A stretch of DNA of 47,650 nucleotides, taken from positions 1 to 47,650 of the forward strand of contig JBBTSQ010000032.1 of NCBI GenBank assembly GCA_038078755.1, written 5' to 3'. The notes under the pieces are model-generated. The model did not search any database. It had not been told where the DNA came from and saw only the letters and a list, made by a program, of their open reading frames with translations. Numbering within the stretch: the stretch's first letter is position 1; each line of letters opens with the position of its first letter. Position numbers and translations under genes: made by a program. The stretch is from Patescibacteria group bacterium. GTDB taxonomy: Bacteria > Patescibacteriota > Minisyncoccia > Phycocordibacterales > JBAYGS01. Positions 2,185 through 46,783 of this stretch are shown here, one piece after another.

Positions 2185-2347
2185 TTCCAGAATTCAGTAT
2201 ACCAAACGGTCTATCATTAATCCTACTCCTGCCACCCCAAAAGTCAACCGCTCTGTGCATTGCATGTGGATAACACATTTTCGTCAAAAGTGAAGAAAAA
2301 GGTTGACTTTAACTGCATAAATGATACGTTAAGAAGCGGAATGGTCT

Positions 2348-14281: not shown

Positions 14282-14429
14282 ACACAAAACTCACAATACA
14301 CAACATACAACTTACAATCAGAGGAGACACGTTAGAGACCCTCTCTTTTATGAGGTGACACCTGAGAATCAGAGAATAATTCGTTAGGTCTTGCCTAACG
14401 CATTAAATAAAAAGTGGGTATGATATAAA

Positions 14430-15026
14430 CTATACTAATTTTTGTTGTAAACTCTCGCATGCAATAACTTCAGCATTACGAATTAAAATTGTTCTGCTTG
14501 TTGTGTACGACAACCCTTTGTTTGGTAGGTTCTCAAACCCAAGATATATGCAACTCACCTTTCGAAGCCGCACCTCAAGAATTGCTGGTTGCAAATCGGA
14601 ATCAGAACTGGCAAGAATAATCTCTTTTACTTTTTTATCACACACCAAACTGACCATATCAACAGCAATTTTCACATCAACACCTTTTTCTTTGAATACG
14701 AGAATCTTCCTCCCATTTTGTCCATCTTCCATTTGAGCACGAACACGGCCGCTCAAAACTACTTCAAACCCTTGTTTTTCAAGATGCGTTTTGAGTAAAC
14801 GCTGATCCTCAATGAGTTGTTTTGACTTCTCTTTACTGCTTTCGTGTTCCTTGATCCGAGCAAAATAAAATACTCGCCTCTGTATGACAGTACCCTTGAG
14901 TACTGTATCAAATAGACGTTTGAAATCATATTGATGCCATACCAACTTCTCTTTTTTAGCATCGACAAAAACAGCCTTAATTTTACCTTTGAGATTCTCG
15001 CCATCAATCAACAGTACTGTGTCCAT
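14430..15026 (-). CDS. NYN-domain (LabA/DUF88, PIN-like) putative ribonuclease
   Basis: 'VLLIDGENL', 'GVDVKIAVDM' and 'ILASSDSDLQPAI' supply the conserved acidic residues of the NYN fold. TGCTACAAT lies 8 nt upstream of the ATG. Confidence 0.8.
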   Translation of the reverse strand: MDTVLLIDGENLKGKIKAVFVDAKKEKLVWHQYDFKRLFDTVLKGTVIQRRVFYFARIKEHESSKEKSKQLIEDQRLLKTHLEKQGFEVVLSGRVRAQMEDGQNGRKILVFKEKGVDVKIAVDMVSLVCDKKVKEIILASSDSDLQPAILEVRLRKVSCIYLGFENLPNKGLSYTTSRTILIRNAEVIACESLQQKLV

Positions 15027-15245
15027 TTAACCCTATTGTAGCAAAAGGCAACGCAAAACCCCAGCGGACCTTTCGGCTAGCTGGGGCGTGTATAAATACA
15101 TACTATACTATAGAATATTTTTCGTCAATGGGGTGTTGATAAGTAAGACATAGCGCATGTACATCCAATCAAAGGAAATGAATTCAACAGCAGAGCAGCT
15201 CTGCTCTGTCATTGGAGGCAGTCTTATTGAGCCATAATATGAAGT

Positions 15246-15288
15246 AAAGGCTCAATCCGCCGTGGCGGATTGAGCCTTTACCTTTTTT
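15246..15288. terminator. Hairpin aaaggctcaatccgcc-gtgg-ggcggattgagccttt with a T-run on the plus strand
   Basis: 13-bp GC-rich stem followed by 'accttttttg' on the plus strand. It lies just downstream of the minus-strand PrgI-like gene. A near-identical hairpin occurs at 33528-33561. Confidence 0.6.
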
Positions 15289-15321
15289 GATTGTAAATTG
15301 TGAGTTGTGGGTTGTGAGTTG

Positions 15322-15741
15322 TCAGTTACCCCTTTTCCCCACATCTTTCACGTCCAAACTCCACGTCAAATCCTTGAGCTTGCTATCTGAAAGGCGGGGG
15401 ACGTAGAGAGGAACAGAGGTTTCTGGTACCTGTTCAGCACTTGGGGTAATCACTTTGTCTTGTTTTTTCCAAATAAACAACTTTGAACCCATACTATACT
15501 TAAATGCCGCCTCCACCACCTCGATAAATGGCTTGCCGTTTATTTTATAAAATGCCAGCGCGAGACCAAAGCCCATTATCACAATAATTGGCAGGCCAGA
15601 AATATAAATCGAGGGGGTAAATCGGAAAATCAAAAAAGATAGCCCGCCGGCGCCGGTGAGGTAGATAAATTGTCGAAGTGTCAGTATGCCACCAATAATT
15701 TTGTCCTGCACTTCAATAAATTGAGGCACTTGAAATTGCAT
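15322..15741 (-). CDS. PrgI-family (VirB3-like) small T4SS membrane protein
   Basis: 'MQFQVPQFIEVQDKIIGGILTLRQFIYL' followed by two TM helices is the PrgI-family N-terminal pattern. The gene lies immediately downstream of the VirB4-like gene. Confidence 0.7.
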   Translation of the reverse strand: MQFQVPQFIEVQDKIIGGILTLRQFIYLTGAGGLSFLIFRFTPSIYISGLPIIVIMGFGLALAFYKINGKPFIEVVEAAFKYSMGSKLFIWKKQDKVITPSAEQVPETSVPLYVPRLSDSKLKDLTWSLDVKDVGKRGN

Positions 15742-15895
15742 AGGGTAAGTATAGCAGGCAAAATCAATTTTGTCAGAAAAATTGATTTTGCCTGCTAAAT
15801 TTCTAATACCTAAGTCCTAATTTCTAAATAAAATTAAGAAATGGCTCTTTTTCTTAGAGTTAGGAATTATAATTTAGAACTTAGGACTTTCGCGA

Positions 15896-17710
15896 CTACT
15901 TTGCACTTGTCGCGAGTTCCTGCTTCGCCCGTTTAATAGCCAAGATTTGAGAAGGGTCTGAAGTAATAATCTGATCTTCGGTGTACGAAGCAATCACTTT
16001 AATCGCCACATGTTTCAATCCCACAAAGAAAATCCCTTCTCCCACATCAGATTCGAGCAAGAGGAATTTTTCTTCATCGGTAAGATTGAACGTCTTTTGA
16101 ACAGTATCAATCGAGGACGGAGATTGTTTGAGCAAAATCTGGATTGATGAGTTGGTCACAATCGGCAAGCCATATGGTGATTTCAAAAAGTCATCGACGT
16201 CTTGGGTGATGGTGGCAAGTCCCAAATAATATTTTCGTCCGCGCTTTGCAAGGGAGAGCAGGAAGGATGCGGTGTCTTCCGACTTCATCATCCACCACGC
16301 TTCATCGATCACCAAAAGGCGTTTTTTGAGATTCTTACGCACCGCGTTCCAGATATAATGAGTGACAATATACATCGCTACCGGCTTCAACTCATCTTCC
16401 ATATCCCGAAGCGAGAAGACGATAAATTTCTTGTTGATATCAACGTTGGTCGGACGATTGATAAAGCCCGCCCACGTCCCCTTGGTATATTTGGTCAGTT
16501 TTTGTACCAGTGAATCTGCTCCCTCCATACCAGCGAGCACCAGCTCAAAGTCAGAGAGAAGTGGCGGTTCTATTTTTGAGAAGTCAGCATCGGCGGTAAT
16601 ACCTTTGAGCGCGTAGGTTTCGGTAATCGCTCGATCAATAATCGCATCTTCTTCGGGCGAAAGTCCCCCGAGCATAATGCGGAATAGTCCGACCAAATTG
16701 ATGATGTTTGATCGAAGAACATCGGCAGGGGACTCATCTTCTCTTGGGATTGGCAGATCAAATGGGTTGATGTGGTTGGTAGAGTTGAGAGAGATATTAA
16801 AATACTTTCCACCGGTAGCTTCTGCCATATATTCATACTCACGTTCTGGGTCAATCACAATCACCTCGGTATCAAACATCAACGTACGCAAAATCTCGAG
16901 TTTGGTAGTGTATGATTTTCCTGAACCGGATTTTGCAAAAGTGATCGAGTTGTAATTTTCAAGTGAAAATCGGTCAAACAGCACCATGCTCGAGTTGTGG
17001 CGGTTGACTCCAAACAAAATTCCCTTGTCAGATGTCAGGTCAAAGGATACAAATGGGAACATACTCGAAAGCGGGGAGGAGTTGAGTTTCGAATGTACAT
17101 TGAGCTGGTCATCCACAATCGGCAATGAGCTCATATATCCTTGCTCCTGTTGAAACAGCGCTGGTTTCACATAGACCAATTTTGATTCGAGAATCGATTT
17201 GATTTCCGACTCGGTCTTATCAAGTTCATTCACATTTTCACCATAAATAGTGATGTATAGTCCAACATCAAAAAGCTTTTCTTGGGCTTGCTGGAGATTA
17301 TCTCGAAGGCCTTCGAGATCGTGATAGGCAGTATCGAGCATTGGATCGCGGACGAGTCCTTTCGCTTCACGTTGATTAATCTGGCTCTGTACTTCGGCCA
17401 CTTTCTTTTGAAATTGGCGGAGTACCTGCGCGGTATCAATCGGATGAATAAAAAGAGAAATGTTGAAAATCTTTTCGAGATTGATAATAGGGGAGAACCA
17501 TGAGTCAGTCAAAAAGCGCGGGTAGGAAATGACAAAAAAGGTGCGGACGATCTTGTCTCCCAAATTGAGCTCTCGGGGGCTGATTTTGAGCGCGCTTGGC
17601 GCGATCACATCTTGGAGTTCAAGCACCCCTGCATCATAAATTTGCTGGGGCAGAATCGGCGCAATACTCGCCTCTGGCTTTTTCTTTTTTAAGAAATCAA
17701 AAAATCCCAT
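15896..17710 (-). CDS. virB4: VirB4/TraC/PrgJ-like type IV secretion ATPase
   Basis: Walker A 'AKSGSGKSYTTK', Walker B 'RLLVIDEAWWMM' and 'LATITQDVDDF'. The N-terminal 'IAPSALKI...VRTFFVISYPRFL' domain is typical of VirB4. Confidence 0.9.
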   Translation of the reverse strand: MGFFDFLKKKKPEASIAPILPQQIYDAGVLELQDVIAPSALKISPRELNLGDKIVRTFFVISYPRFLTDSWFSPIINLEKIFNISLFIHPIDTAQVLRQFQKKVAEVQSQINQREAKGLVRDPMLDTAYHDLEGLRDNLQQAQEKLFDVGLYITIYGENVNELDKTESEIKSILESKLVYVKPALFQQEQGYMSSLPIVDDQLNVHSKLNSSPLSSMFPFVSFDLTSDKGILFGVNRHNSSMVLFDRFSLENYNSITFAKSGSGKSYTTKLEILRTLMFDTEVIVIDPEREYEYMAEATGGKYFNISLNSTNHINPFDLPIPREDESPADVLRSNIINLVGLFRIMLGGLSPEEDAIIDRAITETYALKGITADADFSKIEPPLLSDFELVLAGMEGADSLVQKLTKYTKGTWAGFINRPTNVDINKKFIVFSLRDMEDELKPVAMYIVTHYIWNAVRKNLKKRLLVIDEAWWMMKSEDTASFLLSLAKRGRKYYLGLATITQDVDDFLKSPYGLPIVTNSSIQILLKQSPSSIDTVQKTFNLTDEEKFLLLESDVGEGIFFVGLKHVAIKVIASYTEDQIITSDPSQILAIKRAKQELATSAK

Positions 17711-17778
17711 ATAGACATAGTATACTATGTAAATTTCTAATTTCTAAGTCCTAATTTCTAATAACTGCTGATTGGACA

Positions 17779-18154
17779 TTACTTTGTAACACTTTTATCT
17801 CTCGAATTCTTCACAATGGTAATAAAAATGAGGTGTAATTCGTGGGCTTCCTGCCACAAACGCCTTGCGGTATCAGCATATTCTGGTTTTGCTCGAGCAA
17901 TCATTCTGAGCCAATATCTCGATTCTTTGGCTTCTTCTTTACAAATACCAATTTTATGTTCAAAATCCTTTTTTGATTCTGCACAATCAGCCTCGCAATA
18001 AATTAGAGCCAATACTTGTTGCAGACCGCGCAAGCTGATTTACCAGTGTTGAAGTAATACTATCTTTAGGAATTTTCTTTAAAAAGTCTATGGCTTTTTC
18101 TCCAAATACCGCCGTCCTCTCCTCGAGATCATAAACTTTCTTGCTCTGATTCAT
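17779..18154 (-). pseudogene. Four-helix-bundle protein gene (23S rRNA-IVS / Avd-like family) disrupted by a +1 frameshift near 18000-18002
   Basis: From ATG 18154 the reading frame gives 'MNQSKKVYDLEERTAVFGEKAIDFLKKIPKD..NQLARSATSIGSN', then stops at codon 56. The family continuation 'YCEADCAESKKDFEHKIGICKEEAKESRYWL' is in the next frame. One extra T in 'aatTtat' explains the shift. Confidence 0.7.
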
Positions 18155-18183
18155 TAGAAATTATAATTTAGAAATTAGGGATT

Positions 18184-18225
18184 GCCCATTTCTTTAGCTT
18201 AGTCGACTAAGCTAAAGAAATGGGC
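18184..18225. terminator. 42-nt perfect palindrome overlapping the stop codon of 18207..18848
   Basis: gcccatttctttagcttagtc|gactaagctaaagaaatgggc, a 21-bp stem centred on GTCGAC. Confidence 0.6.
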
Positions 18226-18848
18226 TTCTCGGTGTCGCCTGGATTAAATATCTTGTAAAACAACTCGATGATTTCCTCGGTACCAAGCTGAACCACTCGA
18301 ACACCCGACCGCATCAGCCCTTGGGTCACCACAGACGCTCGCTGGTCAAGCTGGGTGCGATTTTCTTCAAACGAAGCGGTTTTCTCTGCTACAGTTTCTT
18401 GCCCTTTTTTTGAAAAAATACCACCGACGCCCTTGGAAGCATTGAGGGTTGGGGGTGTATATGGTACAGACACAAAGAAAGTCTTAGTCATAATGTTGGC
18501 GTTGTCGGTAAAGTTTTTCACAAATTCGATATACTCGCGAGTTTGAATTTTCAAAATATCACTCATTTGCTGTTTTTGTCGCTCTTCAAGGAGAGCGACG
18601 TACGGCCTGATATCAAGCCGACGAGATTGCACAAACACTTGTATAGAAAAATCGAGAGAGTTTAGGAAATTTTGGAATTGGTAGATGATAGATTGCTGTT
18701 CGTCTGCCGATTTCAAGGCGAAGTTGATCGATGATGCCATCAAAATAATTCGCATCCCGCCGTTTTTGAGAATAAGTACCCCATCTCGTACCTCCTTGAT
18801 CGGTACAAATTCTTGAGTGGTTTTTGCATTTTGGGTACTTTCAGACAT
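18207..18848 (-). CDS. Stand-alone protein resembling the N-terminal domain of Gram-positive VirB4/TraC ATPases
   Basis: 'FVPIKEVRDGVLILKNGGMRIILMASSINFALKSADEQQSIIYQFQNFLNSLDFSIQVFV' follows the N-domain pattern seen in Tn916 Orf16-type VirB4. There is no Walker motif. ATG 18848 is preferred because the upstream ATG 18866 lies inside a TGGTATACT box. Confidence 0.5.
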   Translation of the reverse strand: MSESTQNAKTTQEFVPIKEVRDGVLILKNGGMRIILMASSINFALKSADEQQSIIYQFQNFLNSLDFSIQVFVQSRRLDIRPYVALLEERQKQQMSDILKIQTREYIEFVKNFTDNANIMTKTFFVSVPYTPPTLNASKGVGGIFSKKGQETVAEKTASFEENRTQLDQRASVVTQGLMRSGVRVVQLGTEEIIELFYKIFNPGDTEKPISLA

Positions 18849-18929
18849 TTGAGGTAAGTATACCATAGGAGGAAATTCCTAATTCCTAAATTATAATTTC
18901 TAATGGGGATAATGGTGGAGGGGAAATTT

Positions 18930-18962
18930 CTCTGGCTTCGCCAGATCTCCTGCGGAGCGAGA
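18930..18962. repeat. 33-nt inverted repeat, left arm (partner 22392-22424, 32/33)
   Basis: tctggcttcgccagatctcctgcggagcgagat. It contains the local hairpin tctggc-ttc-gccaga. Confidence 0.85.
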
Positions 18963-19120
18963 TAAGTTCTAATACCTAATTTCTAAAAGGAATCAAAGAT
19001 AGACGAGAAAGCCTCTGGTTTAGAAATTAGGACTTAGGTATTAGCAATTTGTGTTCGCAGTCATTTTGTGTGTCCACACCCAACTAGATACTATGAAATA
19101 TAGGATGGTATACTATATAT

Positions 19121-20131
19121 ATGGTCTTTCTTCGTAGATTATTGGTGATGCTTATTGCCTGTACTGCGGGCTTCGGTCTTTTTTCGACTACTGTTTCTGC
19201 ACAGCTCGCTCCACTTTCTCAATCAATTCTCCAAGTCACCCTCACTCCTGAAAATCCCGCCCCAAATGATGCGGTGTTTGCCCGAGTAGACAGCTACAAT
19301 TTCGACCTCGATACCACCGAGATAGTATGGTACGTAAACGGCGCCTTGCAGACGAGAGGTATGGGGGTCCGACAGTTTAATTTTACCGCGCCCGCGCTTG
19401 GCAAGACCATCGCGCTCAAAGTAGTCGCCCGACACAAGACCCTTGGTGACTTAGAGCAGTCAATTTCTTTGCGGACCGGTGATGTTGAGGTGATATGGGA
19501 ATCTGTTGGCTACACTCCGCCCTTTTATAAAGGTAAGACCCATCATGCATACGGGGGAGTGGTACGCTATATCGCCATCCCGCGACTTACCGACAAAAAT
19601 GGTACCGAAATTTCAGCAAGCAACCTTGTCTACACATGGAAAAAGAATAGCAAGGTAATCCAAGATCAATCTGGTTTTGGCAAATCAAACATTGTGGTTT
19701 CAGACGACAGTTATGTTCGCGATGGCAACGAGATTTCTGTCGAAGTATCAAGCACCGATCATACCGCGCAGGCGACCGGCTACAGCGGAGTCAGTCCTAC
19801 CGTAAGCAAGGTGGTGGTATACGAAAAAGATCCTGCGCTCGGCACACTATACAACAAAGCGGTGGGAAATCTGTTTAGTATTTTTGGTGATGAAGCCGAA
19901 TTAGTGGCAGAACCGTACTTTTTTTCCGTAACCACTCGGGATGCGGGTCAGATCGAATACGAGTGGCTGGTAAACGACCGTCCGGTGAGCGGGAATGACA
20001 AAAAAAGTGTTGTGATACTGAAACCAGCCCCCGGAGCTTCTGGCAAAGCCAATCTGTCATTGATTGTGCAAAACCAGCGACAGATTTTGCAGGGAGGAAA
20101 GTTGTTTAGCACTGTCTATTTTGGGAATTAA
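19121..20131 (+). CDS. Secreted protein built from three beta-rich (Ig-like?) internal repeats
   Basis: Signal peptide 'LIACTAGFGLFSTTVSAQ'. The recurring pattern is 'EIVWYVNG..', 'NLVYTWKKNSKVI..', 'IEYEWLVNDRPV..'. TGGTATACT lies 6 nt upstream of the ATG. Confidence 0.6.
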   Translation: MVFLRRLLVMLIACTAGFGLFSTTVSAQLAPLSQSILQVTLTPENPAPNDAVFARVDSYNFDLDTTEIVWYVNGALQTRGMGVRQFNFTAPALGKTIALKVVARHKTLGDLEQSISLRTGDVEVIWESVGYTPPFYKGKTHHAYGGVVRYIAIPRLTDKNGTEISASNLVYTWKKNSKVIQDQSGFGKSNIVVSDDSYVRDGNEISVEVSSTDHTAQATGYSGVSPTVSKVVVYEKDPALGTLYNKAVGNLFSIFGDEAELVAEPYFFSVTTRDAGQIEYEWLVNDRPVSGNDKKSVVILKPAPGASGKANLSLIVQNQRQILQGGKLFSTVYFGN

Positions 20132-20136
20132 ATTCT

Positions 20137-21117
20137 ATGCGGCATACTACTTCATTTTTTATACACACACTGTCCTTGATGATGATCTTGTGGGCACTGT
20201 CATCGCCAGTGGCGCTTTCAGCGGCACCAATCAGCTATGTCCCGCTCCAACCCGTCCCCGGAGTACCCGTAGGCAATGCTGATTTCAAAACCTACCTTAT
20301 TGCCGGGTTTAAAATCGGGATCAGTGTCGCGGGCATTTTGAGTGTGTTAATGCTTGTCGTTGCCGGTTTTCAATACGCCACCACCGACGCTTTTACCGGA
20401 AAAGAAGAGTCAAAAAACAAAATGACCAAGGTGGTCTATGGCCTCGTGCTGATTCTGGTATCGTATATTCTTCTCAACACAGTCAACAAAGACACGGTCT
20501 CCCTCAAACTCGACTTTGGCGCCCAAGATGCAGTAAACAGGATTGGTGGGGGGTTTCGAGATGGGCTTGCATACAACCGAGCACAAGCTATCCTAAATCA
20601 AAAACTTCGCGAGGCGGTATCTCAATACAGTGAGGGAAGGGCAGAAATAGACACACTCACATCACGAATTAATGATCTAAACGAAAGGATGGAGAATAAT
20701 ATTGATAATCCAATGGAGTACGAGAGGTTGCGTGTGCAAGCTGCTGATCTCGAGAATCAAAAGAACATCTTGGGACAACAAATAGAAAGCGCTCGGGTGA
20801 TGTCTGTATATCAAACTGATTATGATAAAGCGATGTTAGAAATAAATAACAAAGCTATCAATAAAGATGGTTATCTGTTAGCAAAAAAGAATTTCGAAAC
20901 AGCCCAAACATACTACTCTCAAGTAAAAAGGTCTTTGGAGGCAGGAGATCAAGCTTCAAAAGATGCTGCAAAGGCCTTAGATATACGCTGGACTCGTCAA
21001 TTGGAGGATTATAATAAAAAACTGACCGAGATTGAGACAAAATATCCAGTATTCACCCAAGGTAATCAAACATACACGGGCCAAAATTATTTTGTCCCAG
21101 GAACACCTGTTAGATAA
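20137..21117 (+). CDS. VirB2/TrbC-like T4SS pilin domain fused to a ~200-aa coiled-coil C-terminal extension
   Basis: A signal peptide is followed by 'YLIAGFKIGISVAGILSVLMLVVAGFQYATT...KNKMTKVVYGLVLILVSYILLNTV', a two-helix hairpin as in TrbC/VirB2 pilins. A heptad-rich Glu/Lys/Gln tail follows. Confidence 0.55.
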   Translation: MRHTTSFFIHTLSLMMILWALSSPVALSAAPISYVPLQPVPGVPVGNADFKTYLIAGFKIGISVAGILSVLMLVVAGFQYATTDAFTGKEESKNKMTKVVYGLVLILVSYILLNTVNKDTVSLKLDFGAQDAVNRIGGGFRDGLAYNRAQAILNQKLREAVSQYSEGRAEIDTLTSRINDLNERMENNIDNPMEYERLRVQAADLENQKNILGQQIESARVMSVYQTDYDKAMLEINNKAINKDGYLLAKKNFETAQTYYSQVKRSLEAGDQASKDAAKALDIRWTRQLEDYNKKLTEIETKYPVFTQGNQTYTGQNYFVPGTPVR

Positions 21118-21128
21118 ATTATAATATT

Positions 21129-22367
21129 ATGTCCAAAAAAACCGCCACATTGCTCATACTCCTCATTCTCATCATTTTTGGTATTGTTGGTTTTTGGTTT
21201 TATCAACGAGCGCAACAGAGTGGCGGGGGTGAGACCGATACTTCATTTTTTAATTTTTTCCCGTTTGGTAAGCTTGACGTGAATACCGGCACTACCGACG
21301 GCAGCAATGGTTTCGAAGATATCGCTACCACCACCGATACTGGTACTGGCATGGTTGAATTACCTACACTACACAAAATTTCAGATGAGCCGGTCGCGGG
21401 AGGGATCGTGTTTGCAGAAAATACCGTAAATACCGTCCGCTACATCGAGCGCGCCACCGGTCACATCTATCAAGTGCCGTTTGATGCGATGGACAAAGAG
21501 CGAGTATCGATTACTACCATCCCCAAACTCTATGAATCGGTTTGGACTAGTGGGGGAGCGGGAGTACTTGTGCGTTACCTAAAAGGGACGTCAGAAGCTG
21601 TTGAGACTTTTTCACTCAATCTCTCGAGCATTTCCGGCGCGGCATCCGGCGCGCCAGCGGAGGGGACTTTCTTCCCAAAAAATATCTCATCGATCACTGC
21701 CAACCCTGCAAAAACCTCCCTATTCTACATAGTACCCAACGATACTGGCAGTATCGGCTATATCAGCAACCCGACCAATACCATCAAAACCTCCGTATTC
21801 AACTCACCACTAAAAGAGTGGACCGCTACCTGGCCAAAAGAAGACACCATTGCCATCAGTCCAAAACCTGCTCACGGCATTTTCGGACACCTCTTTTTTC
21901 TCAACACCAAAACCAACAAGCTTTCAAAAGTGCTTTCAAAAGTGCCAGGGCTTACCGCATTACCAAACACCGATGCATCGGCAATTCTGTACAGTCGAAG
22001 TGGTGGAAACGACACGCGCCTCTACATCAAAAGTCTAAAAACAGGAGCTGTTCGAGAGATGCCTTTCGCGACACTCCCTGAAAAATGCGTCTGGGCCCAG
22101 ACTCAAAGTCTCTTGCTTTTCTGCGCGGTGCCGAAAGAGGGGATGCAGGGTGAACTGCCTGATATTTGGTATCAGGGATTGGTGTCATTTAGTGATCAGG
22201 TATGGCGAGTGGATGTTGAAACGGGAGCCACTGACCTCATCGCTGACCCGGATGAACTGGCATTTATCCCGCTTGATATCATCGACATATCACTCGCGCC
22301 CGATGACAGTGTGATGACATTTACCAACAAAAAAGATCTTACTTACTGGGGACTTAGGCTCAGGTAA
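21129..22367 (+). CDS. Signal-anchored protein, beta-propeller-like (TolB/PD40-like?) ectodomain
   Basis: N-terminal TM 'TATLLILLILIIFGIVGFWFY' and a long beta-rich remainder. Last gene of the three-gene plus-strand unit. Confidence 0.5.
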   Translation: MSKKTATLLILLILIIFGIVGFWFYQRAQQSGGGETDTSFFNFFPFGKLDVNTGTTDGSNGFEDIATTTDTGTGMVELPTLHKISDEPVAGGIVFAENTVNTVRYIERATGHIYQVPFDAMDKERVSITTIPKLYESVWTSGGAGVLVRYLKGTSEAVETFSLNLSSISGAASGAPAEGTFFPKNISSITANPAKTSLFYIVPNDTGSIGYISNPTNTIKTSVFNSPLKEWTATWPKEDTIAISPKPAHGIFGHLFFLNTKTNKLSKVLSKVPGLTALPNTDASAILYSRSGGNDTRLYIKSLKTGAVREMPFATLPEKCVWAQTQSLLLFCAVPKEGMQGELPDIWYQGLVSFSDQVWRVDVETGATDLIADPDELAFIPLDIIDISLAPDDSVMTFTNKKDLTYWGLRLR

Positions 22368-22391
22368 GCAGAAATTCCTAATTCCTAAATC

Positions 22392-22424
22392 ATCTCGCTC
22401 CGCAGGAGATCTGGCAAAGCCAGA
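22392..22424. repeat. 33-nt inverted repeat, right arm (partner 18930-18962)
   Basis: atctcgctccgcaggagatctggcaaagccaga. The single difference from the partner falls in the loop of the local hairpin. Confidence 0.85.
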
Positions 22425-22433
22425 TAATTTCTA

Positions 22434-22550
22434 ATGAACCCGAGTAAAAAAGTCTATGATCTCGAGGAGAGGACGGCGGTATTTGGAGAAAAGACTATAG
22501 ACTTTTTGAGGTACATTCCTAAAGATATATTAGAAATTTATCTTGTTTGA
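22434..22550 (+). pseudogene. 5' remnant (~31 codons) of a four-helix-bundle gene, inverted relative to 17779..18154
   Basis: It encodes 'MNPSKKVYDLEERTAVFGEKTIDFLRYIPKD', then diverges and stops. A 38-nt identical run tatgatctcgaggagaggacggcggtatttggagaaaa is shared with the reverse complement of 18062-18154. Confidence 0.65.
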
Positions 22551-22563
22551 CTTGTCTTCTGCT

Positions 22564-23025
22564 CTACTCAATGTATTTCGCCACCACTCTCCGCTCTCTC
22601 CCTTCACCGATTGATTCGGTTTTGATGTGGGGGAATGTCTTGAGTTCGGAGTGAACAATCATTCGTTCATAGGAGGTCATCGGTTCAAATTCTACATCGG
22701 TTTTAAAAGTGGTAGCTCGATCAGCATAGAGTCGCGCTTTCAGCCGAAGTGTATCAACAATACCTTCTTTGTATTTATTAATATCGAGTGTAAATTTTGG
22801 TATTTCGCGAGTGCCCGCTTGTTTGATGGCAATTTTGCGCACCACATGATCAAACGCGTCGAGGTGTTCTCCATCTGTGCCAATCAAACGCCCCGCTTCT
22901 TTGGTATAAATATCAATAGCCACCGTACTCGTCTCGGAAATAGTGCGTGTAGCAATCTCATCGGCATTGACCCCCATATAGGTGATCAGTCGAGCGATAA
23001 TTTCTTTAATGGTGTTGATATCCAT
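22564..23025 (-). CDS. jag: Jag/KhpB-like RNA-binding protein (KH + R3H domains)
   Basis: C-terminal R3H pattern 'MTSYERMIVHSELKTF'. It occupies the canonical position downstream of yidC. Confidence 0.8.
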   Translation of the reverse strand: MDINTIKEIIARLITYMGVNADEIATRTISETSTVAIDIYTKEAGRLIGTDGEHLDAFDHVVRKIAIKQAGTREIPKFTLDINKYKEGIVDTLRLKARLYADRATTFKTDVEFEPMTSYERMIVHSELKTFPHIKTESIGEGRERRVVAKYIE

Positions 23026-23159
23026 ATATGCAAAAGCGGCTTAATTTCTACAAACCAATTAAATGGTCTCAGATGCGAGGCATCGGCGAGTACCGTGACC
23101 AAAATGTATATGGAAATACATTGCGGGAGCGGGCGGAGCCGATAACAAAGCAGATGAGA

Positions 23160-24074: not shown

Positions 24075-24300
24075 AATGGGTTGAGCCTTTAAACTAAATT
24101 TCACCAAAAAGCGCTAAAAGTCACTACGTCAAAAACCGTGTGATAATTTCCCAAACGGCGTTGTGGTGTAGCCACAGAATGCTCGAACGGCTCACTCTTT
24201 TTGGCTTCAAAAGCAGTGAGCCGTTTAACTGTATGGTGCTTATGTAGAGCCATCTTTTTGCTAAAAAGCAAAAAGATGGCTCAGTTGAGGTTTTTTCTGA
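24075..24300. repeat. Mosaic relative of the 28065/33314 hairpin element, inverted relative to the 33.3-kb copy
   Basis: It shares the hairpin core aacggctcac...gtgagccgtt. Its reverse complement also shares cgtttgggaaattatcacacg, gtgactttt, tttttggtgaaa and aaaggctcaa blocks with 33423-33540. Confidence 0.7.
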
Positions 24301-24324
24301 TTGTCAGTTGTGTGTTGTTAATTG

Positions 24325-24687
24325 TTAGTTTTTCCCCACCCTATCAACCAATCCTTGTTTAATCTCTGCCATCACCTCTTCAAAGGGTATTTTTTCCGCC
24401 CCCGATTTGGCAAAGATAATCAGTGTGATTGGTGGAAAAGTAAGCTCTTCACCAATTGCTCTGACTGCCCGATAAATTTTTCGGGTAATCGCGTGCCGAG
24501 ACACGGCCGTCTTAAATATTTTTTTGCTCGCGACCGCAGAAATCCGTACCAAGCTACCGCTTTTTAATCCAGCTTGTTCGGGCATAGGAAGGTATCGAAA
24601 AGAAAAGTGGGGGGTGTGCGCCACCTTCCCACTTTTCATTACTTGATCAAACAAATTGGTACTAACTCGTGCGCGTTTTGGAAGCAT
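24325..24687 (-). CDS. rnpA: Ribonuclease P protein component
   Basis: A basic ~120-aa protein ('MLPKRARV...', 'SRHAITRKIYRAVRAI') located between rpmH and yidC, as in most bacteria. Confidence 0.8.
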   Translation of the reverse strand: MLPKRARVSTNLFDQVMKSGKVAHTPHFSFRYLPMPEQAGLKSGSLVRISAVASKKIFKTAVSRHAITRKIYRAVRAIGEELTFPPITLIIFAKSGAEKIPFEEVMAEIKQGLVDRVGKN

Positions 24688-28022: not shown

Positions 28023-28064
28023 TATTTTTTCTAAACAGACCCTCAACAGAGCCATAAAATGCTC

Positions 28065-28183
28065 GAACGGCTCACCGAGCACCATGCTTATTACTTACAA
28101 GCATACTACTAAAAGAACCAGTAACACCCTATTACTCTTTACCCATACGTTCGATACATATGGTGCTTCGGTGAGCCGTTCAG
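28065..28183 (+). repeat. 119-nt hairpin element, copy A
   Basis: Identical to 33314-33435 except for a 3-nt indel. The arms gaacggctcaccgagcaccat / atggtgcttcggtgagccgttc (about 21 bp, one bulge) enclose about 75 nt. Confidence 0.9.
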
Positions 28184-31422: not shown

Positions 31423-31479
31423 AATGAAAGTTGTAGTATACCATTTTTCTAGGCGAAATAAGTGGAATTGTGCTAGAGT

Positions 31480-33131: not shown

Positions 33132-33313
33132 GATGGAGCAAACTAACAACCAACAATCTACAACTTACAATCAGAGTAAGATAAAGAGCGGCGATGTAGG
33201 CGCTGCTCTTTGTGCATAGGACCGTCCTTTGCAATACATTCAAAGAATTTATATTTAGAGCCATTTCTTCAACTTTTCGCTGTAGCGTGCCTATGTAGAG
33301 GCCCAAAAGTGCT

Positions 33314-33435
33314 GAACGGCTCACCGAGCACCATGCTTATTACTTACAAGCATACTACTACTAAAAGAACCAGTAACACCCTATTACTCTTTACCCATAC
33401 GTTCGATACATATGGTGCTTCGGTGAGCCGTTCAG
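33314..33435 (+). repeat. 122-nt hairpin element, copy B
   Basis: Identical to 28065-28183 apart from one extra 'cta'. It continues 3' into blocks shared with the 24.1-kb relative. Confidence 0.9.
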
Positions 33436-33527
33436 GCATTTTGTGGCTTTATAGCAATGTCGTTTGGGAAATTATCACACGCTCTTTGGTGCAGTGACTT
33501 TTGGTGGTTTTTGGTGAAAATTAAGTT

Positions 33528-33561
33528 AAAGGCTCAATCCGCCGCGGCGGATTGAGCCTTT
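33528..33561. terminator. Hairpin aaaggctcaatccgcc-gcgg-ggcggattgagccttt (33/34 identical to 15246-15279)
   Basis: 13-bp GC-rich stem between convergent genes (acidic protein plus strand, ruvC minus strand). There is no clear T-run. Confidence 0.5.
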
Positions 33562-33729
33562 AAACTATAACAAAACCTTTTTTGTGAATAATCCTGTGAA
33601 TTATCTCTGAACAACTAGTGGATAGACTATAATATGGCCCTGTAACAAGCTTTAATTACATATTTTTCTAAGCAAACTCTTATCCACATATGTTAATATC
33701 GCTGTTTTTTAAACTTTTCTACATTCGAT

Positions 33730-41032: not shown

Positions 41033-41091
41033 AGGGGTAAGTATACCAGACAAGGAGGTATGAAGTATAAAGTAAAAAGTATAACGTATGG

Positions 41092-41122
41092 GGAAAAGAA
41101 AGCGGGGGAAATCGCGAAGCGA
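41092..41122. repeat. GC-rich perfect hairpin embedded in AGTATAA-type low-complexity arms
   Basis: gcgggggaaatcgc-gaa-gcgatttcccccgc. It is flanked by gtatgaagtataaagtaaaaagtataacgtatgggg and its approximate complement. Confidence 0.7.
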
Positions 41123-41299
41123 TTTCCCCCGCCCCACCTTTATACTTTTTACGTTATACATGATACTTCTTCGGGTACTTGACAGAATTATGATTATGGT
41201 ATAGGGTCCTCGATGGAAGGGTAGATATGTGGGGTCGTGTGATTCCACAAAGTCTACCAAAACGTCCTGTCACAAATCAAAAACAGAAGGAAAATCAGT

Positions 41300-46296: not shown

Positions 46297-46334
46297 TCGA
46301 TAGATGGTAGTTAGTAGTTAGGGAAACAGATTTA

Positions 46335-46721
46335 ATGATAGAAAATAATAAAAAAATACAAAGTTTTAAACAGCTACGTGCTTGGCAAGAAGCACACAGA
46401 CTTACATTACTTGTGTATACATGCACGAAACAATTTCCTAAGGAAGAAATATTCGGATTAACCAGCCAAATACGCAGATCTGCAAGTTCGATAGGAGCCA
46501 ATATTGCAGAGGGTTTTTGTCGTTTTTCACTAAAAGACAAAGTTCACTTTTATACCATCGCGGCAGGCTCAATCTCTGAAACAGAAAATCATATCGAGCT
46601 TGCTGGTGATTTAGGGTATATTAACGCAGAGTCGTATTCCATGTTACAAGAGCAACTTCTGTCTGTGTACAAGTTAAGTAACGCACTAATTAAAAGTATT
46701 AAGGTTTCTCCGAATTATTGA
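46335..46721 (+). CDS. Four-helix-bundle protein (23S rRNA intervening-sequence protein / Avd-like family)
   Basis: 'FKQLRAWQEAHRLTLLVY..FPKEEIFGLTSQIRRSASSIGANIAEGF.R.S.KD...FYTIAAGSISE' is the family consensus pattern. Confidence 0.9.
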   Translation: MIENNKKIQSFKQLRAWQEAHRLTLLVYTCTKQFPKEEIFGLTSQIRRSASSIGANIAEGFCRFSLKDKVHFYTIAAGSISETENHIELAGDLGYINAESYSMLQEQLLSVYKLSNALIKSIKVSPNY

Positions 46722-46783
46722 ATACGGTATTCGTTGACTTATTTACCAAACTACCATCTACTAACTACTAACTACCACTGCCC

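What the first reader, a model, noticed from the sequence alone, without database searches (positions are those of the whole stretch)
17731..22550. Nested inverted repeats and a truncated 4HB gene copy bracket a 4.3-kb piece of the T4SS-like locus
The 5' ~93 nt of the frameshifted four-helix-bundle gene (reverse complement of 18062-18154) recurs at 22434-22526 in inverted orientation. The two copies share a 38-nt identical run and are roughly 83% identical by eye. The right copy is only a ~31-codon stump. Inside this pair is a second inverted pair of 33 nt (18930-18962 and 22392-22424, 32/33); its single difference falls in the loop of a conserved local hairpin. A 20/20 direct repeat gaaattcctaattcctaaat is also present (18872-18891 and 22371-22390). 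Together these repeats bracket the VirB4-N-like gene and the three secreted-protein genes (19121..22367). The pattern suggests a past or ongoing DNA inversion or cassette exchange, which could switch expression of surface proteins.
Basis: seen in the sequence. Interest (0 to 1): 0.7.

Follow-up and report, generated by a model that had tools for sequence, protein, structure and literature searches.

The report
Four-helix-bundle insertion elements, not an invertible switch
The repeats are real, but they are the ends and decayed remains of four copies of a small insertion element in a conserved secretion-system operon of a Paceibacteria genome, and the 4.3-kb piece they bracket is not an invertible cassette, although a neighbouring block of the operon was inverted in the past.

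Summary
**Observation: confirmed.** The inverted pair 18061-18164 / 22424-22527 is 104 nt and 88% identical, with a 38-nt identical run. The 33-nt inverted pair matches 32/33, and the direct repeat matches 20/20.

**What they are.** All three belong to four copies of one small element. It is a PF05635/TIGR02436 four-helix-bundle (4HB) gene bounded by inverted ~32-nt arrays of AATTYCT heptamers. The copies sit in four intergenic gaps of a T4SS-like operon next to dnaA:
- one frameshifted copy,
- one internally deleted stump,
- two copies with no ORF.

**A general architecture.** 4HB genes with inverted periodic flanks recur in 49 genes of related loci, in cyanobacterial plasmids and in one Azospirillum plasmid. 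The closest protein homologues, in unrelated gene contexts, carry the same heptamers, which points to a mobile unit.

**What actually moved.** About 160 related loci keep the order PrgI, B4N, VirB4, then the secreted-protein genes, all on one strand. Here the secreted-protein genes keep that orientation. PrgI and the B4N-VirB4 block are inverted, and the breakpoints lie in element-filled gaps. The bracketed 18.1-22.4 kb piece is therefore not the rearranged unit.

**No sign of a switch.**
- No recombinase in 47.6 kb.
- All 14 independent same-strain contigs are colinear with the window.
- The repeat arms have diverged mainly by synonymous changes.

The parts
14288..15320 (-). Insert absent from related loci. 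A NYN-domain gene (14430-15026, minus strand) is bounded by inverted arrays of a second heptamer family (ACAACTY/TTGTGAG) at 14288-14320 and 15288-15320. It fills the p233|PrgI gap, which is the left breakpoint.
   Evidence: The inverted repeat is 33 nt at 85%. NYN Pfam hit. NYN is not found in the 160 related loci.
15322..15741 (-). PrgI-family gene. Its strand is opposite to that in relatives, and it now lies downstream of VirB4 instead of upstream of B4N.
   Evidence: PF12666. PrgI precedes B4N on the same strand in 146 of 149 related loci.
15797..15891 (.). Element 1, without an ORF. Heptamer arm a (15797-15828), a 31-nt loop, and inverted arm b (15860-15891). It lies in the PrgI|VirB4 gap, which is the middle breakpoint.
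   Evidence: Arm a is 97% complementary to 19019-19050, and arm b is 88% complementary to 18872-18903. The RNA fold pairs the two arms.
15896..17710 (-). VirB4-like ATPase (C-terminal three quarters of a split VirB4). Part of the inverted block.
   Evidence: Pfam P-loop_TraG. NCBIfam CD1110 family, model positions 185-733. Opposite in strand to s336, p602 and DnaA, unlike all relatives.
17731..18186 (-). Element 2, the complete copy. 3' arm at 17731-17762, 4HB gene at 17779-18154 with a +1 frameshift near 18005, and 5' arm at 18152-18186. The arm overlaps the ATG and contains a TATAAT.
   Evidence: PF05635 on both ORF halves. The reconstructed protein hits TIGR02436 at 8e-21 and PDB 2RLD at 1e-12. 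The arms are 84% complementary. They pair as the closing stem in the minimum-free-energy fold.
18184..18225 (.). Perfect 42-nt palindrome at the end of the B4N gene, next to element 2. Several short-read contigs end here.
   Evidence: I9, 100%. Contig ends at 18193-18196.
18207..18866 (-). B4N, the stand-alone N-terminal domain of VirB4. Part of the inverted block.
   Evidence: PF26593 TraC-like. NCBIfam CD1110, model positions 2-114. Precedes VirB4 in 142 of 142 related loci.
18871..19050 (.). Element 3, composite and without an ORF. Arm b' with a relic ATG (18871-18905), the 33-nt double hairpin in minus orientation (18930-18962), arm c (18963-18987), a loop, and inverted arm a' (19019-19050). 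It lies in the B4N|s336 gap, which is the right breakpoint.
19121..22367 (+). Three genes: a secreted 336-aa protein, a T4SS-pilin-like 326-aa protein and a 412-aa membrane-anchored protein. They keep the orientation seen in relatives.
   Evidence: (PF18895, weak).
22371..22539 (+). Element 4, the internally deleted copy. 5' arm (22371-22390), 33-nt double hairpin inserted in the array (22392-22424), the rest of the arm with the ATG (22425-22436), the first ~31 codons of the 4HB gene, joined at a TATTA microhomology to the last ~11 nt of the 3' arm (22529-22539). It lies in the s412|Jag gap.
   Evidence: Related locus L118 has an intact 4HB gene in the same gap.
46305..46777 (+). A second, intact 4HB element in the window, between polA and holA, with its own heptamer family. 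TGGTAGTTAGTAGTTAG at 46305-46321 and its exact complement at 46761-46777.
   Evidence: PF05635 at 9e-36. Arms match 17/17.

Best explanation
**What it is.**
- The repeats are the termini and remnants of four copies of one small insertion element.
- A full element is a roughly 125-codon 4HB gene (PF05635/TIGR02436, the '23S rRNA intervening-sequence protein' family). It is bracketed, right at its start and stop codons, by ~32-nt arrays of AATTYCT heptamers in inverted orientation.
- The four copies occupy four intergenic gaps of a conserved Paceibacteria T4SS-like operon beside yidC-jag-dnaA.

**The four copies.**
- Element 2 (17731-18186) is complete but frameshifted.
- Element 4 (22371-22539) lost everything between codon ~32 and the last ~11 nt of its 3' arm.
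- Elements 1 and 3 are arm-loop-arm relics without an ORF.
- A 33-nt double hairpin sits inside the arrays of elements 3 and 4.

- The 104-nt inverted repeat is the shared 5' end (arm plus 31 codons) of elements 2 and 4.
- The two copies point in opposite directions because each runs with its local transcription unit, as these genes almost always do.
- The B4N-VirB4 block that carries element 2 was inverted in this lineage. PrgI was inverted separately.
- This takes a minimum of two inversions with three breakpoints. All three lie in gaps filled by heptamer-array elements.

**Shown.**
- The anatomy of the elements.
- The family-wide architecture.
- The co-occurrence of gene subtype and array type.
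- The ancestral gene order and which blocks are inverted.
- The absence of a recombinase.
- A single orientation in all assemblies.

**Inferred.**
- The inverted arrays served as the recombination or template-switch substrates. The pair 15797-15828 / 19019-19050, which matches 31/32, flanks exactly the inverted block.
- The elements are tolerated inside operons because the two arms pair in the transcript into a ~30-bp stem that RNase III can cut, as in rRNA intervening sequences.
- Each rearranged block keeps its own TGnTATACT-type promoter just upstream of its ATG.
For: **Anatomy in the window.**
- Arrays and repeats.
- 4HB identity.
- Stump junction, and 6 synonymous against 4 non-synonymous codon differences.
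- The two window copies are each other's closest relatives at the DNA level.
- The arms pair as the closing stem in the minimum-free-energy fold.

**Gene order in relatives.**

| Relationship | Related loci |
|---|---|
| B4N before VirB4, same strand | 142/142 |
| VirB4 and s336 on the same strand | 124/124 |
| p602 and VirB4 on the same strand | 58/58 |
| VirB4 and DnaA on the same strand | 65/65 |
| PrgI before B4N, same strand | 146/149 |

- The loci come, and the maps.
- In the window, VirB4, B4N and PrgI are on the strand opposite to p602, s336 and DnaA.

**The architecture is general.**
- 49 4HB genes in related loci have a median best flanking inverted-repeat score of 15. The median for 1363 control ORFs is 7.
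- 71% of them score 12 or more, against 1.8% of controls (Mann-Whitney p = 6e-24).
- All but two of the 50 detected 4HB ORFs lie on the operon strand.

**Evidence for mobility.**
- 4HB genes are present or absent in the p233|PrgI, PrgI|B4N, B4N|VirB4 and s412|Jag gaps of different relatives.
- The same subtype occurs in different gaps of different genomes.
- Protein similarity tracks flank similarity (Spearman 0.24; 0 of 2000 permutations reach it).
- The closest homologues (about 70% identity) sit between unrelated genes (TGT, glycosyltransferase, TPR, LamG). They carry the same AAGTTCT/AAATTAT/AATTTCT arrays.

**Other phyla.** At least 9 of 13 4HB genes on cyanobacterial and Azospirillum plasmids have inverted periodic flanks. 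One more has direct arrays. Several sit inside cas operons.

**Not an artefact, not a switch.** 14 independent contigs are colinear with the window. No recombinase was found.
Against: - No target-site duplication or precise empty-versus-filled site could be defined.
- No transposase, reverse transcriptase or integrase is linked to the element, so how it moves is unknown.
- Native intergenic DNA in some relatives is itself heptamer-like. The genes might therefore insert into pre-existing arrays rather than carry them.
- The arms do not show clean base-by-base covariation. They are arrays of one heptamer family in opposite orientation, with a flexible register.
- One cyanobacterial case has direct, not inverted, arrays.
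- PrgI has no inverted repeat at its present borders. PrgI alone is also inverted in three relatives with clean junctions, so the PrgI inversion need not have involved the elements.
- The RNA folds of the ORF-less elements are only modestly better than shuffled sequence (z = -1.4 to -3.7).
- RNase III processing and the promoters are inferred, not shown.
- The nearest relatives are only 86% identical in VirB4, so the inversions cannot be dated.
Confidence: 0.7

Rival explanations
1. **Programmed invertible switch.** The 104-nt and 33-nt inverted repeats are recombination sites at which the 4.3-kb piece flips, switching expression of the pilin-like and secreted proteins.
For: Two nested inverted-repeat pairs do bracket the piece. 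The 38-nt identical run and the 32/33 hairpin pair are long enough for occasional homologous exchange. Short-read contigs end at 18193-18196, 22421 and 22463, which is what an assembly-graph bubble would also produce.
Against: - No invertase, integrase or transposase in 47.6 kb.
- All 14 independent contigs have one orientation.
- The contig ends sit at repeats longer than the assemblers' k-mer or at a perfect palindrome, which breaks contigs without any inversion.
- The long arms are 12% diverged with mostly synonymous changes, so they are not being homogenised.
- Flipping would tear B4N away from VirB4, an adjacency kept in 142 of 142 relatives.
- The secreted-protein genes are in the ancestral orientation.
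Confidence: 0.05
2. **Host intergenic repeats rather than element ends.** The heptamer arrays are native features of these genomes, such as promoter or UP elements, terminators, RNA-processing stems or STRR-like simple repeats. The 4HB genes are ordinary small resident genes. The inverted repeat comes from a local segmental duplication followed by decay.
For: - The arrays lie directly upstream of -10-like boxes and start codons (TAGAAA-16-TATACT before VirB4; TGGGCA-17-TATAAT before the 4HB gene).
- Arm-loop-arm units without an ORF exist (element 1, element 3, and 41058-41165).
- An empty gap in relative L118 already contains heptamer-like sequence.
- Other cargo (NYN) can sit between arrays.
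Against: - Array sequence follows 4HB protein subtype, not host or position.
- The same arrays accompany the closest homologues in unrelated hosts and gene contexts.
- Family-A arrays occur at 4 gaps within 6.8 kb and nowhere else in 47.6 kb.
- Related loci lack them at the same gaps.
- Promoter-like matches are not enriched overall (23 found, 17 ± 3.2 expected).
Confidence: 0.15
3. **Unprogrammed structural polymorphism.** The many inverted arms in this 7-kb stretch still recombine at low frequency by RecA-dependent exchange or replication template switching. The population would then hold rare rearranged variants with no regulatory role.
For: - The locus has already been inverted at these gaps.
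- The arm pair 15797-15828 / 19019-19050 matches 31/32.
- A near-identical strain (L006: 99.7% identity over 677 nt covering jag and the stump) has a different gene upstream of jag, so structural variants exist near this locus.
Against: No variant contig for the T4SS-like part was recovered from at least 8 samples. The identical tracts are short (38 nt or less).
Confidence: 0.1

Closest known systems
Intervening sequences (IVS) of bacterial 23S rRNA genes that carry a PF05635 ORF (Leptospira, Coxiella and others; recalled from memory, literature tool unavailable)
   Same: The same protein family is encoded. The ORF is bounded by inverted repeats that can close into a long stem. The element sits inside a transcription unit, in the sense orientation, and is sporadically present or absent.
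   Different: - It is not in rRNA. No rRNA is present in the window, and the elements lie between protein-coding genes of an operon.
- The bounding repeats are arrays of 7-nt units whose sequence is specific to the gene subtype.
- ORF-less and internally deleted derivatives accumulate.
- RNase III excision is untested here.
STRR heptamer repeats of heterocystous cyanobacteria, and the small dispersed repeats (SDR) inserted within them (Mazel 1990 and Elhai 2008; recalled from memory, with the Elhai reference seen)
   Same: Both are tandem 7-nt units in intergenic DNA. A short hairpin-forming unit (33 nt) is inserted inside a heptamer array; compare 18872-18905 with 22371-22436. Cyanobacterial 4HB genes examined here are themselves flanked by such heptamer arrays.
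   Different: The phylum is different (Patescibacteria). The arrays are short (about 4.5 units) and paired in inverted orientation around a gene. To my knowledge a link between STRR-type arrays and 4HB genes has not been described, and I could not check this.
MITEs and other small TIR-bounded non-autonomous elements, such as REPINs (PMC3116915)
   Same: - Terminal inverted repeats.
- Multiple copies in intergenic gaps.
- Internally deleted derivatives that keep both ends.
- Hairpin-forming solo units.
- Association with rearrangement breakpoints.
   Different: No target-site duplication was found and no transposase or RAYT lies nearby. The terminal repeats are periodic arrays rather than a fixed recognition sequence. 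The cargo is a conserved non-transposase gene.
Site-specific invertible segments (Hin/Gin/Cin, fim switch, shufflons)
   Same: Inverted repeats bracket a segment that contains surface-protein genes.
   Different: There is no recombinase gene. The arms are diverged. Only one orientation was recovered. The bracketed segment is not the unit that differs from relatives.
Avd, the four-helix-bundle accessory protein of diversity-generating retroelements
   Same: The same Pfam family (PF05635).
   Different: No reverse transcriptase and no template/variable repeat pair were found in the window.

Membership tests
23S rRNA intervening sequence (IVS) element | Encodes a PF05635/TIGR02436 four-helix-bundle protein | tested here: met
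   Both ORF halves hit PF05635. The frameshift-corrected protein hits TIGR02436 at 8e-21 and PDB 2RLD at 1e-12.
23S rRNA intervening sequence (IVS) element | Bounded by inverted repeats that form a closing stem | tested here: met
   Arms 17732-17762 / 18153-18183 are 84% complementary. They pair in the minimum-free-energy fold of the 466-nt transcript.
23S rRNA intervening sequence (IVS) element | Inserted in a helix of the 23S rRNA gene | tested here: not met
   No Rfam rRNA match in the window. The elements lie between protein-coding genes.
23S rRNA intervening sequence (IVS) element | Excised from the transcript by RNase III without religation | not testable with these tools
   Needs RNA-end mapping.
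Site-specific invertible DNA switch | Inverted repeats flank the invertible segment | tested here: met
   104-nt (88%) and 33-nt (32/33) inverted pairs flank 18.2-22.4 kb.
Site-specific invertible DNA switch | A dedicated recombinase (serine or tyrosine) is encoded in or next to the segment | tested here: not met
   A Pfam scan of the main ORFs across the 47.6-kb window finds none. Only RuvB, RuvC, a UvrD-type helicase and a DprA-like fragment are present.
Site-specific invertible DNA switch | Both orientations coexist in the population | tested here: inconclusive
   14 independent contigs show one orientation only. Raw reads could not be examined.
Site-specific invertible DNA switch | The segment is the unit that varies between relatives | tested here: not met
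   The secreted-protein genes keep the ancestral orientation. The parts that differ are PrgI and B4N-VirB4.
MITE / TIR transposon | Terminal inverted repeats and multiple dispersed copies | tested here: met
   Four family-A copies in the window. The same arrays and gene occur in unrelated contexts elsewhere.
MITE / TIR transposon | Target-site duplication | tested here: inconclusive
   None is visible at the borders of element 2 by inspection. A comparison of an empty gap (L118) with a filled one (L129) did not resolve the borders.
MITE / TIR transposon | A cognate transposase in the genome | tested here: not met
   None in the window. The rest of the genome was not available.
Diversity-generating retroelement (Avd) | An adjacent reverse transcriptase and a template/variable repeat pair | tested here: not met
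   No RT domain in the window. The repeats found are element ends, not a TR/VR pair.
STRR-type heptamer repeats | Tandem 7-nt units in intergenic DNA | tested here: met
   Heptamer-flanked 4HB genes also occur in Nostoc, Trichormus, Calothrix, Picosynechococcus and Pseudanabaena.

The most novel reading that the evidence does not exclude
PF05635 four-helix-bundle genes bracketed by subtype-specific inverted heptamer arrays may be an unrecognised, cross-phylum class of selfish 'operon intervening sequences'. They occur in Patescibacteria, Cyanobacteria and at least one alphaproteobacterium.

On this reading:
- They insert in the sense orientation into the gaps of operons, including cas operons and this T4SS-like operon.
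- They are cut out of the transcript at the arm-arm stem, so they do little harm.
- The 4HB protein recognises its own arrays to promote spread or maintenance.
- They decay into the solitary heptamer hairpins and STRR-like arrays that litter these genomes.
- As a by-product they seed inversions such as the one that reshuffled this otherwise invariant operon.
Probability: 0.3. Interest if true: 0.75.

Novelty: new variant of a known kind. Interest (0 to 1): 0.5.

Why it matters
**For the finding as written.** The answer is deflationary. There is no phase-variable surface-protein cassette. There are only decayed copies of an insertion element, and one past rearrangement.

**What is worth keeping.**
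- **A rare rearrangement of a fixed operon.** The T4SS-like operon next to dnaA has an essentially fixed gene order in about 160 Paceibacteria loci. This genome is a rare exception, and its breakpoints coincide with the elements. This is a concrete case of small repeats reshaping a core locus in a reduced genome.
- **A reproducible gene-plus-array architecture.** The very abundant and functionally unexplained 4HB ('23S rRNA IVS protein') genes show the same layout in several phyla: a gene flanked at its start and stop codons by arrays of about 7-nt units, usually inverted, specific to the subtype, and lying in tight co-directional gaps. If this holds up, it ties together three old loose ends:
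  - what PF05635 proteins do outside DGRs and rRNA,
  - why rRNA intervening sequences carry this ORF,
  - where cyanobacterial STRR heptamer arrays come from.

  It also suggests direct experiments in culturable cyanobacteria.

Tried and rejected
- **Known RNA families.** No match at gathering threshold in the window. A permissive scan of 14.2-23.1 kb gave only sub-threshold miRNA-precursor matches to the generic hairpin at 15747-15802. No tRNA or tmRNA was found.
- **Defence systems.** The 4HB proteins have no PADLOC match. NYN matches only generic NYN/HEC-09 models.
- **Recombinase search.** None in the window.
- **More copies of the 33-nt hairpin.** None in the window beyond the two, and none in the related loci.
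- **Closer relatives.**
  - The genome scan gave at best 86-87% VirB4 identity.
  - The metagenome scan gave at best 73% B4N identity.
  - No intermediate arrangement was found to date or order the inversions.
- **Inverted repeats around PrgI.** None in the window. None in the three relatives where PrgI alone is inverted.
- **Exact insertion borders and target-site duplication.** The comparison of L118 (empty gap) with L129 (filled gap) was not resolved.
- **Base-by-base covariation between arms of related elements.** Not seen. The register of the heptamers shifts.
- **Misassembly.** Rejected. The junctions are spanned by independent contigs from other samples.
- **Promoter and terminator scan.** Individual sites are suggestive, but there is no overall enrichment.
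- **Literature.**
  - One search worked and returned nothing on 4HB genes with heptamer flanks.
  - Every later search, and every look-up by DOI or PubMed id, failed or was not held.
  - Statements about IVS, STRR, SDR and Avd therefore rest on memory, and novelty could not be checked against the literature.

Full report

Yes.
- The repeat finder returns an inverted pair at 18061-18164 / 22424-22527. It is 104 nt, gapless and 88% complementary. A gapped local alignment carries it to 18055-18164 / 22424-22532.
- It contains a 38-nt identical run.
- The left arm is the 5' end of a minus-strand gene whose two reading-frame halves both hit PF05635. The right arm opens a 38-codon ORF that resembles that gene only through about codon 31.
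- The 33-nt inverted pair (18930-18962 / 22392-22424) matches 32/33. Its one difference lies in a hairpin loop. A 23-nt core occurs exactly twice, against 0.00 expected.
- The 20/20 direct repeat is at 18872-18891 / 22371-22390.
Otherwise the description is accurate.

**2.

- All three repeats are embedded in short arrays with a 7-nt period, (AATTYCT)n.
- A degenerate two-unit pattern has 20 matches where 0.27 are expected. All lie between 15.8 and 22.4 kb.
- Plus-oriented arrays lie at 15797-15828, 17731-17762, 18871-18905, 18963-18987 and 22371-22390.
- Minus-oriented arrays lie at 15860-15891, 18152-18186, 19019-19050 and, as a remnant, 22529-22539.
- Read as plus-X-minus units, they define four elements in four intergenic gaps.

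| Element | Coordinates | Gap | Content |
|---|---|---|---|
| 1 | 15797-15891 | PrgI\|VirB4 | arm, 31-nt loop, arm |
| 2 | 17731-18186 | VirB4\|B4N | arm, 4HB gene, arm |
| 3 | 18871-19050 | B4N\|s336 | arm with a relic ATG, 33-nt hairpin, arm, loop, arm |
| 4 | 22371-22539 | s412\|Jag | arm interrupted by the 33-nt hairpin, ATG plus 31 codons, last ~11 nt of the 3' arm |

- In element 4 the coding remnant is joined to the arm remnant at a TATTA microhomology. It is therefore an internally deleted copy that kept both ends.
- Comparing GAAATTCCTAATTCCTAAAT-TAT-AATTTCTAATG (element 3) with GAAATTCCTAATTCCTAAAT-[33-nt hairpin]-AATTTCTAATG (element 4) shows that the hairpin sits inside an array.

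**3. The genes**

Pfam and NCBIfam give the following map.

| Strand | Gene | Coordinates |
|---|---|---|
| minus | NYN | 14430-15026 |
| minus | PrgI | 15322-15741 |
| minus | VirB4-like ATPase | 15896-17710 |
| minus | frameshifted 4HB gene | 17779-18154 |
| minus | B4N | 18207-18866 |
| plus | 336-aa secreted protein (s336) | 19121-20131 |
| plus | 326-aa T4SS-pilin-like protein | 20137-21117 |
| plus | 412-aa membrane-anchored protein (s412) | 21129-22367 |
| minus | jag/khpB, yidC, rnpA, rpmH | from 22564 |
| plus | dnaA, dnaN | from 25071 |

- B4N aligns to the N-terminal ~115 positions of full-length VirB4-like ATPases. The 604-aa protein aligns to positions 185-733. VirB4 is therefore a split gene.
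- The frameshift-corrected 4HB protein hits TIGR02436 (8e-21) and the solved four-helix-bundle protein 2RLD (1e-12).
- The source is contig CAYINR010000002.1 of assembly GCA_964364845.1, and near-identical contigs come from Hainich groundwater samples. Relatives are Paceibacteria/Parcubacteria metagenome-assembled genomes.

**4. Which piece is rearranged?**

I fetched 80 loci from species-representative genomes with VirB4 and 80 metagenome loci with B4N. I then mapped 14 window proteins onto them.

The conserved layout is p720, p602, p233, PrgI, B4N, VirB4, s336, (pilin), s412 on one strand. Jag and YidC follow on the other strand, and then DnaA.

| Relationship | Related loci |
|---|---|
| B4N before VirB4, same strand | 142/142 |
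| VirB4 and s336 on the same strand | 124/124 |
| p602 and VirB4 on the same strand | 58/58 |
| VirB4 and DnaA on the same strand | 65/65 |
| PrgI before B4N, same strand | 146/149 |

- In the window, p720, p602, p233, s336, pilin, s412, Jag, YidC and DnaA all keep their mutual orientation.
- PrgI, VirB4 and B4N are on the opposite strand, in the order PrgI, VirB4, B4N along the plus strand.
- As a signed permutation, (P N V S) has become (-P -V -N S). This has three breakpoints and needs at least two reversals: PrgI alone, and the B4N-VirB4 block.

The three breakpoints are:
- the p233|PrgI gap, which holds a 1-kb insert with NYN between inverted arrays of a second heptamer family (14288-14320 / 15288-15320);
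- the PrgI|VirB4 gap, which holds element 1;
- the B4N|s336 gap, which holds element 3.

The inverted B4N-VirB4 block is flanked by two nested inverted arm pairs. These are 15797-15828 / 19019-19050 (31/32) and 15860-15891 / 18872-18903 (88%).

B4N belongs to the inverted block, and the three secreted-protein genes do not.

**5. Why the two 4HB copies are inverted**

- 4HB genes in the related loci lie on the operon strand in all but two of 50 cases. The same holds for the closest homologues elsewhere and on cyanobacterial plasmids.
- Element 2 runs with B4N-VirB4, and element 4 runs with the secreted-protein genes.
- Before the block inversion the two copies would have been direct repeats. 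Their present inverted relationship follows from that inversion.
- The two copies are each other's closest relatives at the DNA level.
- They differ at 10 of 31 codons, 6 of them synonymously. They diverged while both were still coding and then decayed, one by frameshift and one by deletion. They are not being homogenised.

**6. What the elements are**

- A profile search of all ORFs in the related loci found 50 4HB ORFs. They sit in the p233|PrgI, PrgI|B4N, B4N|VirB4 and s412|Jag gaps of different genomes, so they are present or absent at equivalent gaps.
- For 49 of them I scored the best inverted repeat between the 90 nt before the start codon and the 90 nt after the stop codon.
  - The median score is 15, against 7 for 1363 control ORFs.
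  - 71% score 12 or more, against 1.8% of controls (p = 6e-24).
- The arms abut the start and stop codons, have a period of about 7 nt, and differ in sequence from element to element. Examples are TAGCTTC, GAATATA, AACCAAC and AAAATCA. The second intact 4HB gene of the window (46335-46721) has TAGTTAG arms that match 17/17.
- Protein similarity predicts flank similarity (Spearman 0.24; 0 of 2000 permutations).
- One subtype is found in different gaps of different genomes.
- The 4HB family is very large. 7998 of the 8000 scored candidates had E ≤ 1e-10, and the best identity is 71-74%.
- Four of the closest homologues lie between unrelated genes (TGT, a glycosyltransferase, TPR and LamG proteins). 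They carry the same AAGTTCT / AAATTAT / AATTTCT arrays on both sides.
- Gene and arrays therefore travel together.

The layout is not confined to Patescibacteria.
- Of 13 4HB genes on cyanobacterial and Azospirillum plasmids, at least 9 have inverted periodic flanks. One (Pseudanabaena) has long direct arrays.
- Several sit in tight co-directional gaps of cas operons (cas6|cas4, cas10|cmr3).

**7. Is inversion ongoing?**

- No serine or tyrosine recombinase, transposase or reverse transcriptase is encoded in the 47.6-kb window.
- 14 independent contigs of the same strain are colinear with the window at 99.7% identity or more. They come from several Hainich wells and replicates and from Logan assemblies. 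Together they span every junction.
- Several short contigs end at 18193-18196 (a perfect 42-nt palindrome), 22421 (the 33-nt hairpin) and 22463 (the 38-nt identical run). Small-k assemblers break at repeats in this way, so this is not evidence for two orientations.
- Raw reads were not available, so a rare minority form cannot be excluded.

**8. How it most likely works**

*Shown:*
- the element anatomy;
- the pairing of gene subtype with array type;
- the sense-strand placement in operon gaps;
- decay into ORF-less hairpins;
- the coincidence of elements with the three breakpoints.

*Inferred:*
- The inverted arms, many of them within 7 kb, provided the substrates for the B4N-VirB4 inversion, by homologous exchange or by template switching at a fork. 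The PrgI inversion may be independent of the elements. PrgI alone is inverted in three relatives with clean junctions.
- The two arms of an element, when co-transcribed with the host operon, pair into a stem of about 30 bp. The minimum-free-energy fold of the element 2 transcript closes in exactly this way. Such a stem is the kind of substrate that RNase III cuts in rRNA intervening sequences (established knowledge, recalled from memory). Cutting there would release the 4HB message and leave the flanking cistrons usable.
- Each rearranged block can still be expressed, because a TGnTATACT-like -10 box lies 7-12 nt upstream of the ATG of B4N, s336, VirB4, PrgI and several unrelated genes. This suggests leaderless or short-leader transcripts.
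- How the elements move is unknown.

**9. Comparison with known systems**

- The closest known system is the 23S rRNA intervening sequence that carries this same ORF family between inverted repeats. These elements fail the defining feature of lying in rRNA. They can be said to work like an IVS, but they are not members of that class.
- They resemble MITEs in having terminal inverted repeats, multiple copies and deletion derivatives. They lack a detectable target duplication or transposase.
- The arrays resemble cyanobacterial STRR heptamers. The 33-nt hairpin inside an array resembles the small dispersed repeats reported inside such arrays (Elhai 2008; the reference was seen, and its content is from memory).
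- They are not a DGR (no RT, no TR/VR pair), not an integron cassette (no integrase), and not a Hin- or Fim-type switch.

**10. Verdict**

- The proposed invertible surface-protein cassette is not supported.
- The general idea of a past inversion at these repeats is supported, but for a different segment.
- The specific repeats are ordinary debris of an insertion-element family.
- The family itself is 4HB genes with subtype-specific heptamer arms sitting in operon gaps across phyla. To my knowledge it has not been described in this form.

Interest: 0.5.

Noticed in passing
window 28056-28183 and 33306-33435; partial copy 24160-24230: A ~130-nt repeat (96% identical, direct orientation). Its ends, GAACGGCTCACCGAGCACCAT and ATGGTGCTTCGGTGAGCCGTTC, pair into a 21-bp stem around an ~85-nt loop. 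It lies in intergenic DNA after dnaN and near ruvC. It could be a MITE or a structured small RNA. There is no Rfam match.
   Followed up: partly
window 15244-15281 and 33523-33562; partial copy 24078-24095: A repeated G+C-rich terminator-like hairpin (GTAAAGGCTCAATCCGCC...GGCGGATTGAGCCTTTAC followed by a T-run) at several gene ends.
   Followed up: no
window 14288-15320: The NYN-domain (predicted RNase) gene is absent from about 160 related loci. It is bracketed by inverted arrays of a second heptamer family (ACAACTY/TTGTGAG). Solo arrays of that family also lie at 24296-24330 and 33140-33176. Heptamer-arm units can therefore carry cargo other than 4HB genes.
   Followed up: partly
window 41058-41165: Another ORF-less arm-hairpin-arm unit, with a fourth heptamer family (GTATAAA). 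It surrounds a GGGGGAAATCGC/GCGATTTCCCCC hairpin, between the T2SS-E/PilB-like ATPase gene and the next gene.
   Followed up: no
window 46305-46777: A second, intact 4HB element between polA and holA. Its TAGTTAG-type arms match perfectly (17/17).
   Followed up: yes
L006 (Logan ERR3654040) against window 22463-23139: A near-identical strain (99.7% identity over jag and the 4HB stump) has an S1-domain gene, not yidC, upstream of jag. The sequences diverge at window position ~23139. This is either a structural variant close to the origin or a chimeric contig.
   Followed up: partly
L150, L167, L174, L164: In three metagenomic relatives PrgI alone is inverted relative to B4N-VirB4. The junctions are tight and there are no flanking inverted repeats. 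In L164 yidC-jag is inverted. PrgI orientation is the one recurrently variable feature of this operon.
   Followed up: partly
window 15896-18866 and all related loci: VirB4 is split into a ~215-aa N-domain gene (B4N) and a ~600-aa ATPase gene throughout this clade, usually about 10 nt apart. The B4N|VirB4 gap is a recurrent 4HB insertion site (window, L019, L028, L029, L056, L063, L107, L114, L118, L129).
   Followed up: partly
window 2196-2204, 18857-18865, 19106-19114, 31435-31443, 41040-41048: The motif TGGTATACT (an extended -10 box) lies 7-12 nt upstream of several start codons with no Shine-Dalgarno sequence between them. This suggests leaderless or very short-leader mRNAs in this organism.
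   Followed up: partly
window 1-47650 (cumulative GC skew minimum near 28-29 kb): The skew minimum and dnaA-dnaN place the replication origin at about 25-29 kb. The ancestral T4SS-like operon is therefore transcribed head-on to replication. The inverted PrgI and B4N-VirB4 blocks are now co-directional with the fork, which is a possible reason why the inversion was kept.
   Followed up: no
L190, L192, L197 (cyanobacterial plasmids): 4HB genes with heptamer flanks sit inside CRISPR-cas operons: cas6|cas4 in Pseudanabaena, cas10|cmr3 in Picosynechococcus, and upstream of cas4 in Anabaena sp. 90.
   Followed up: partly
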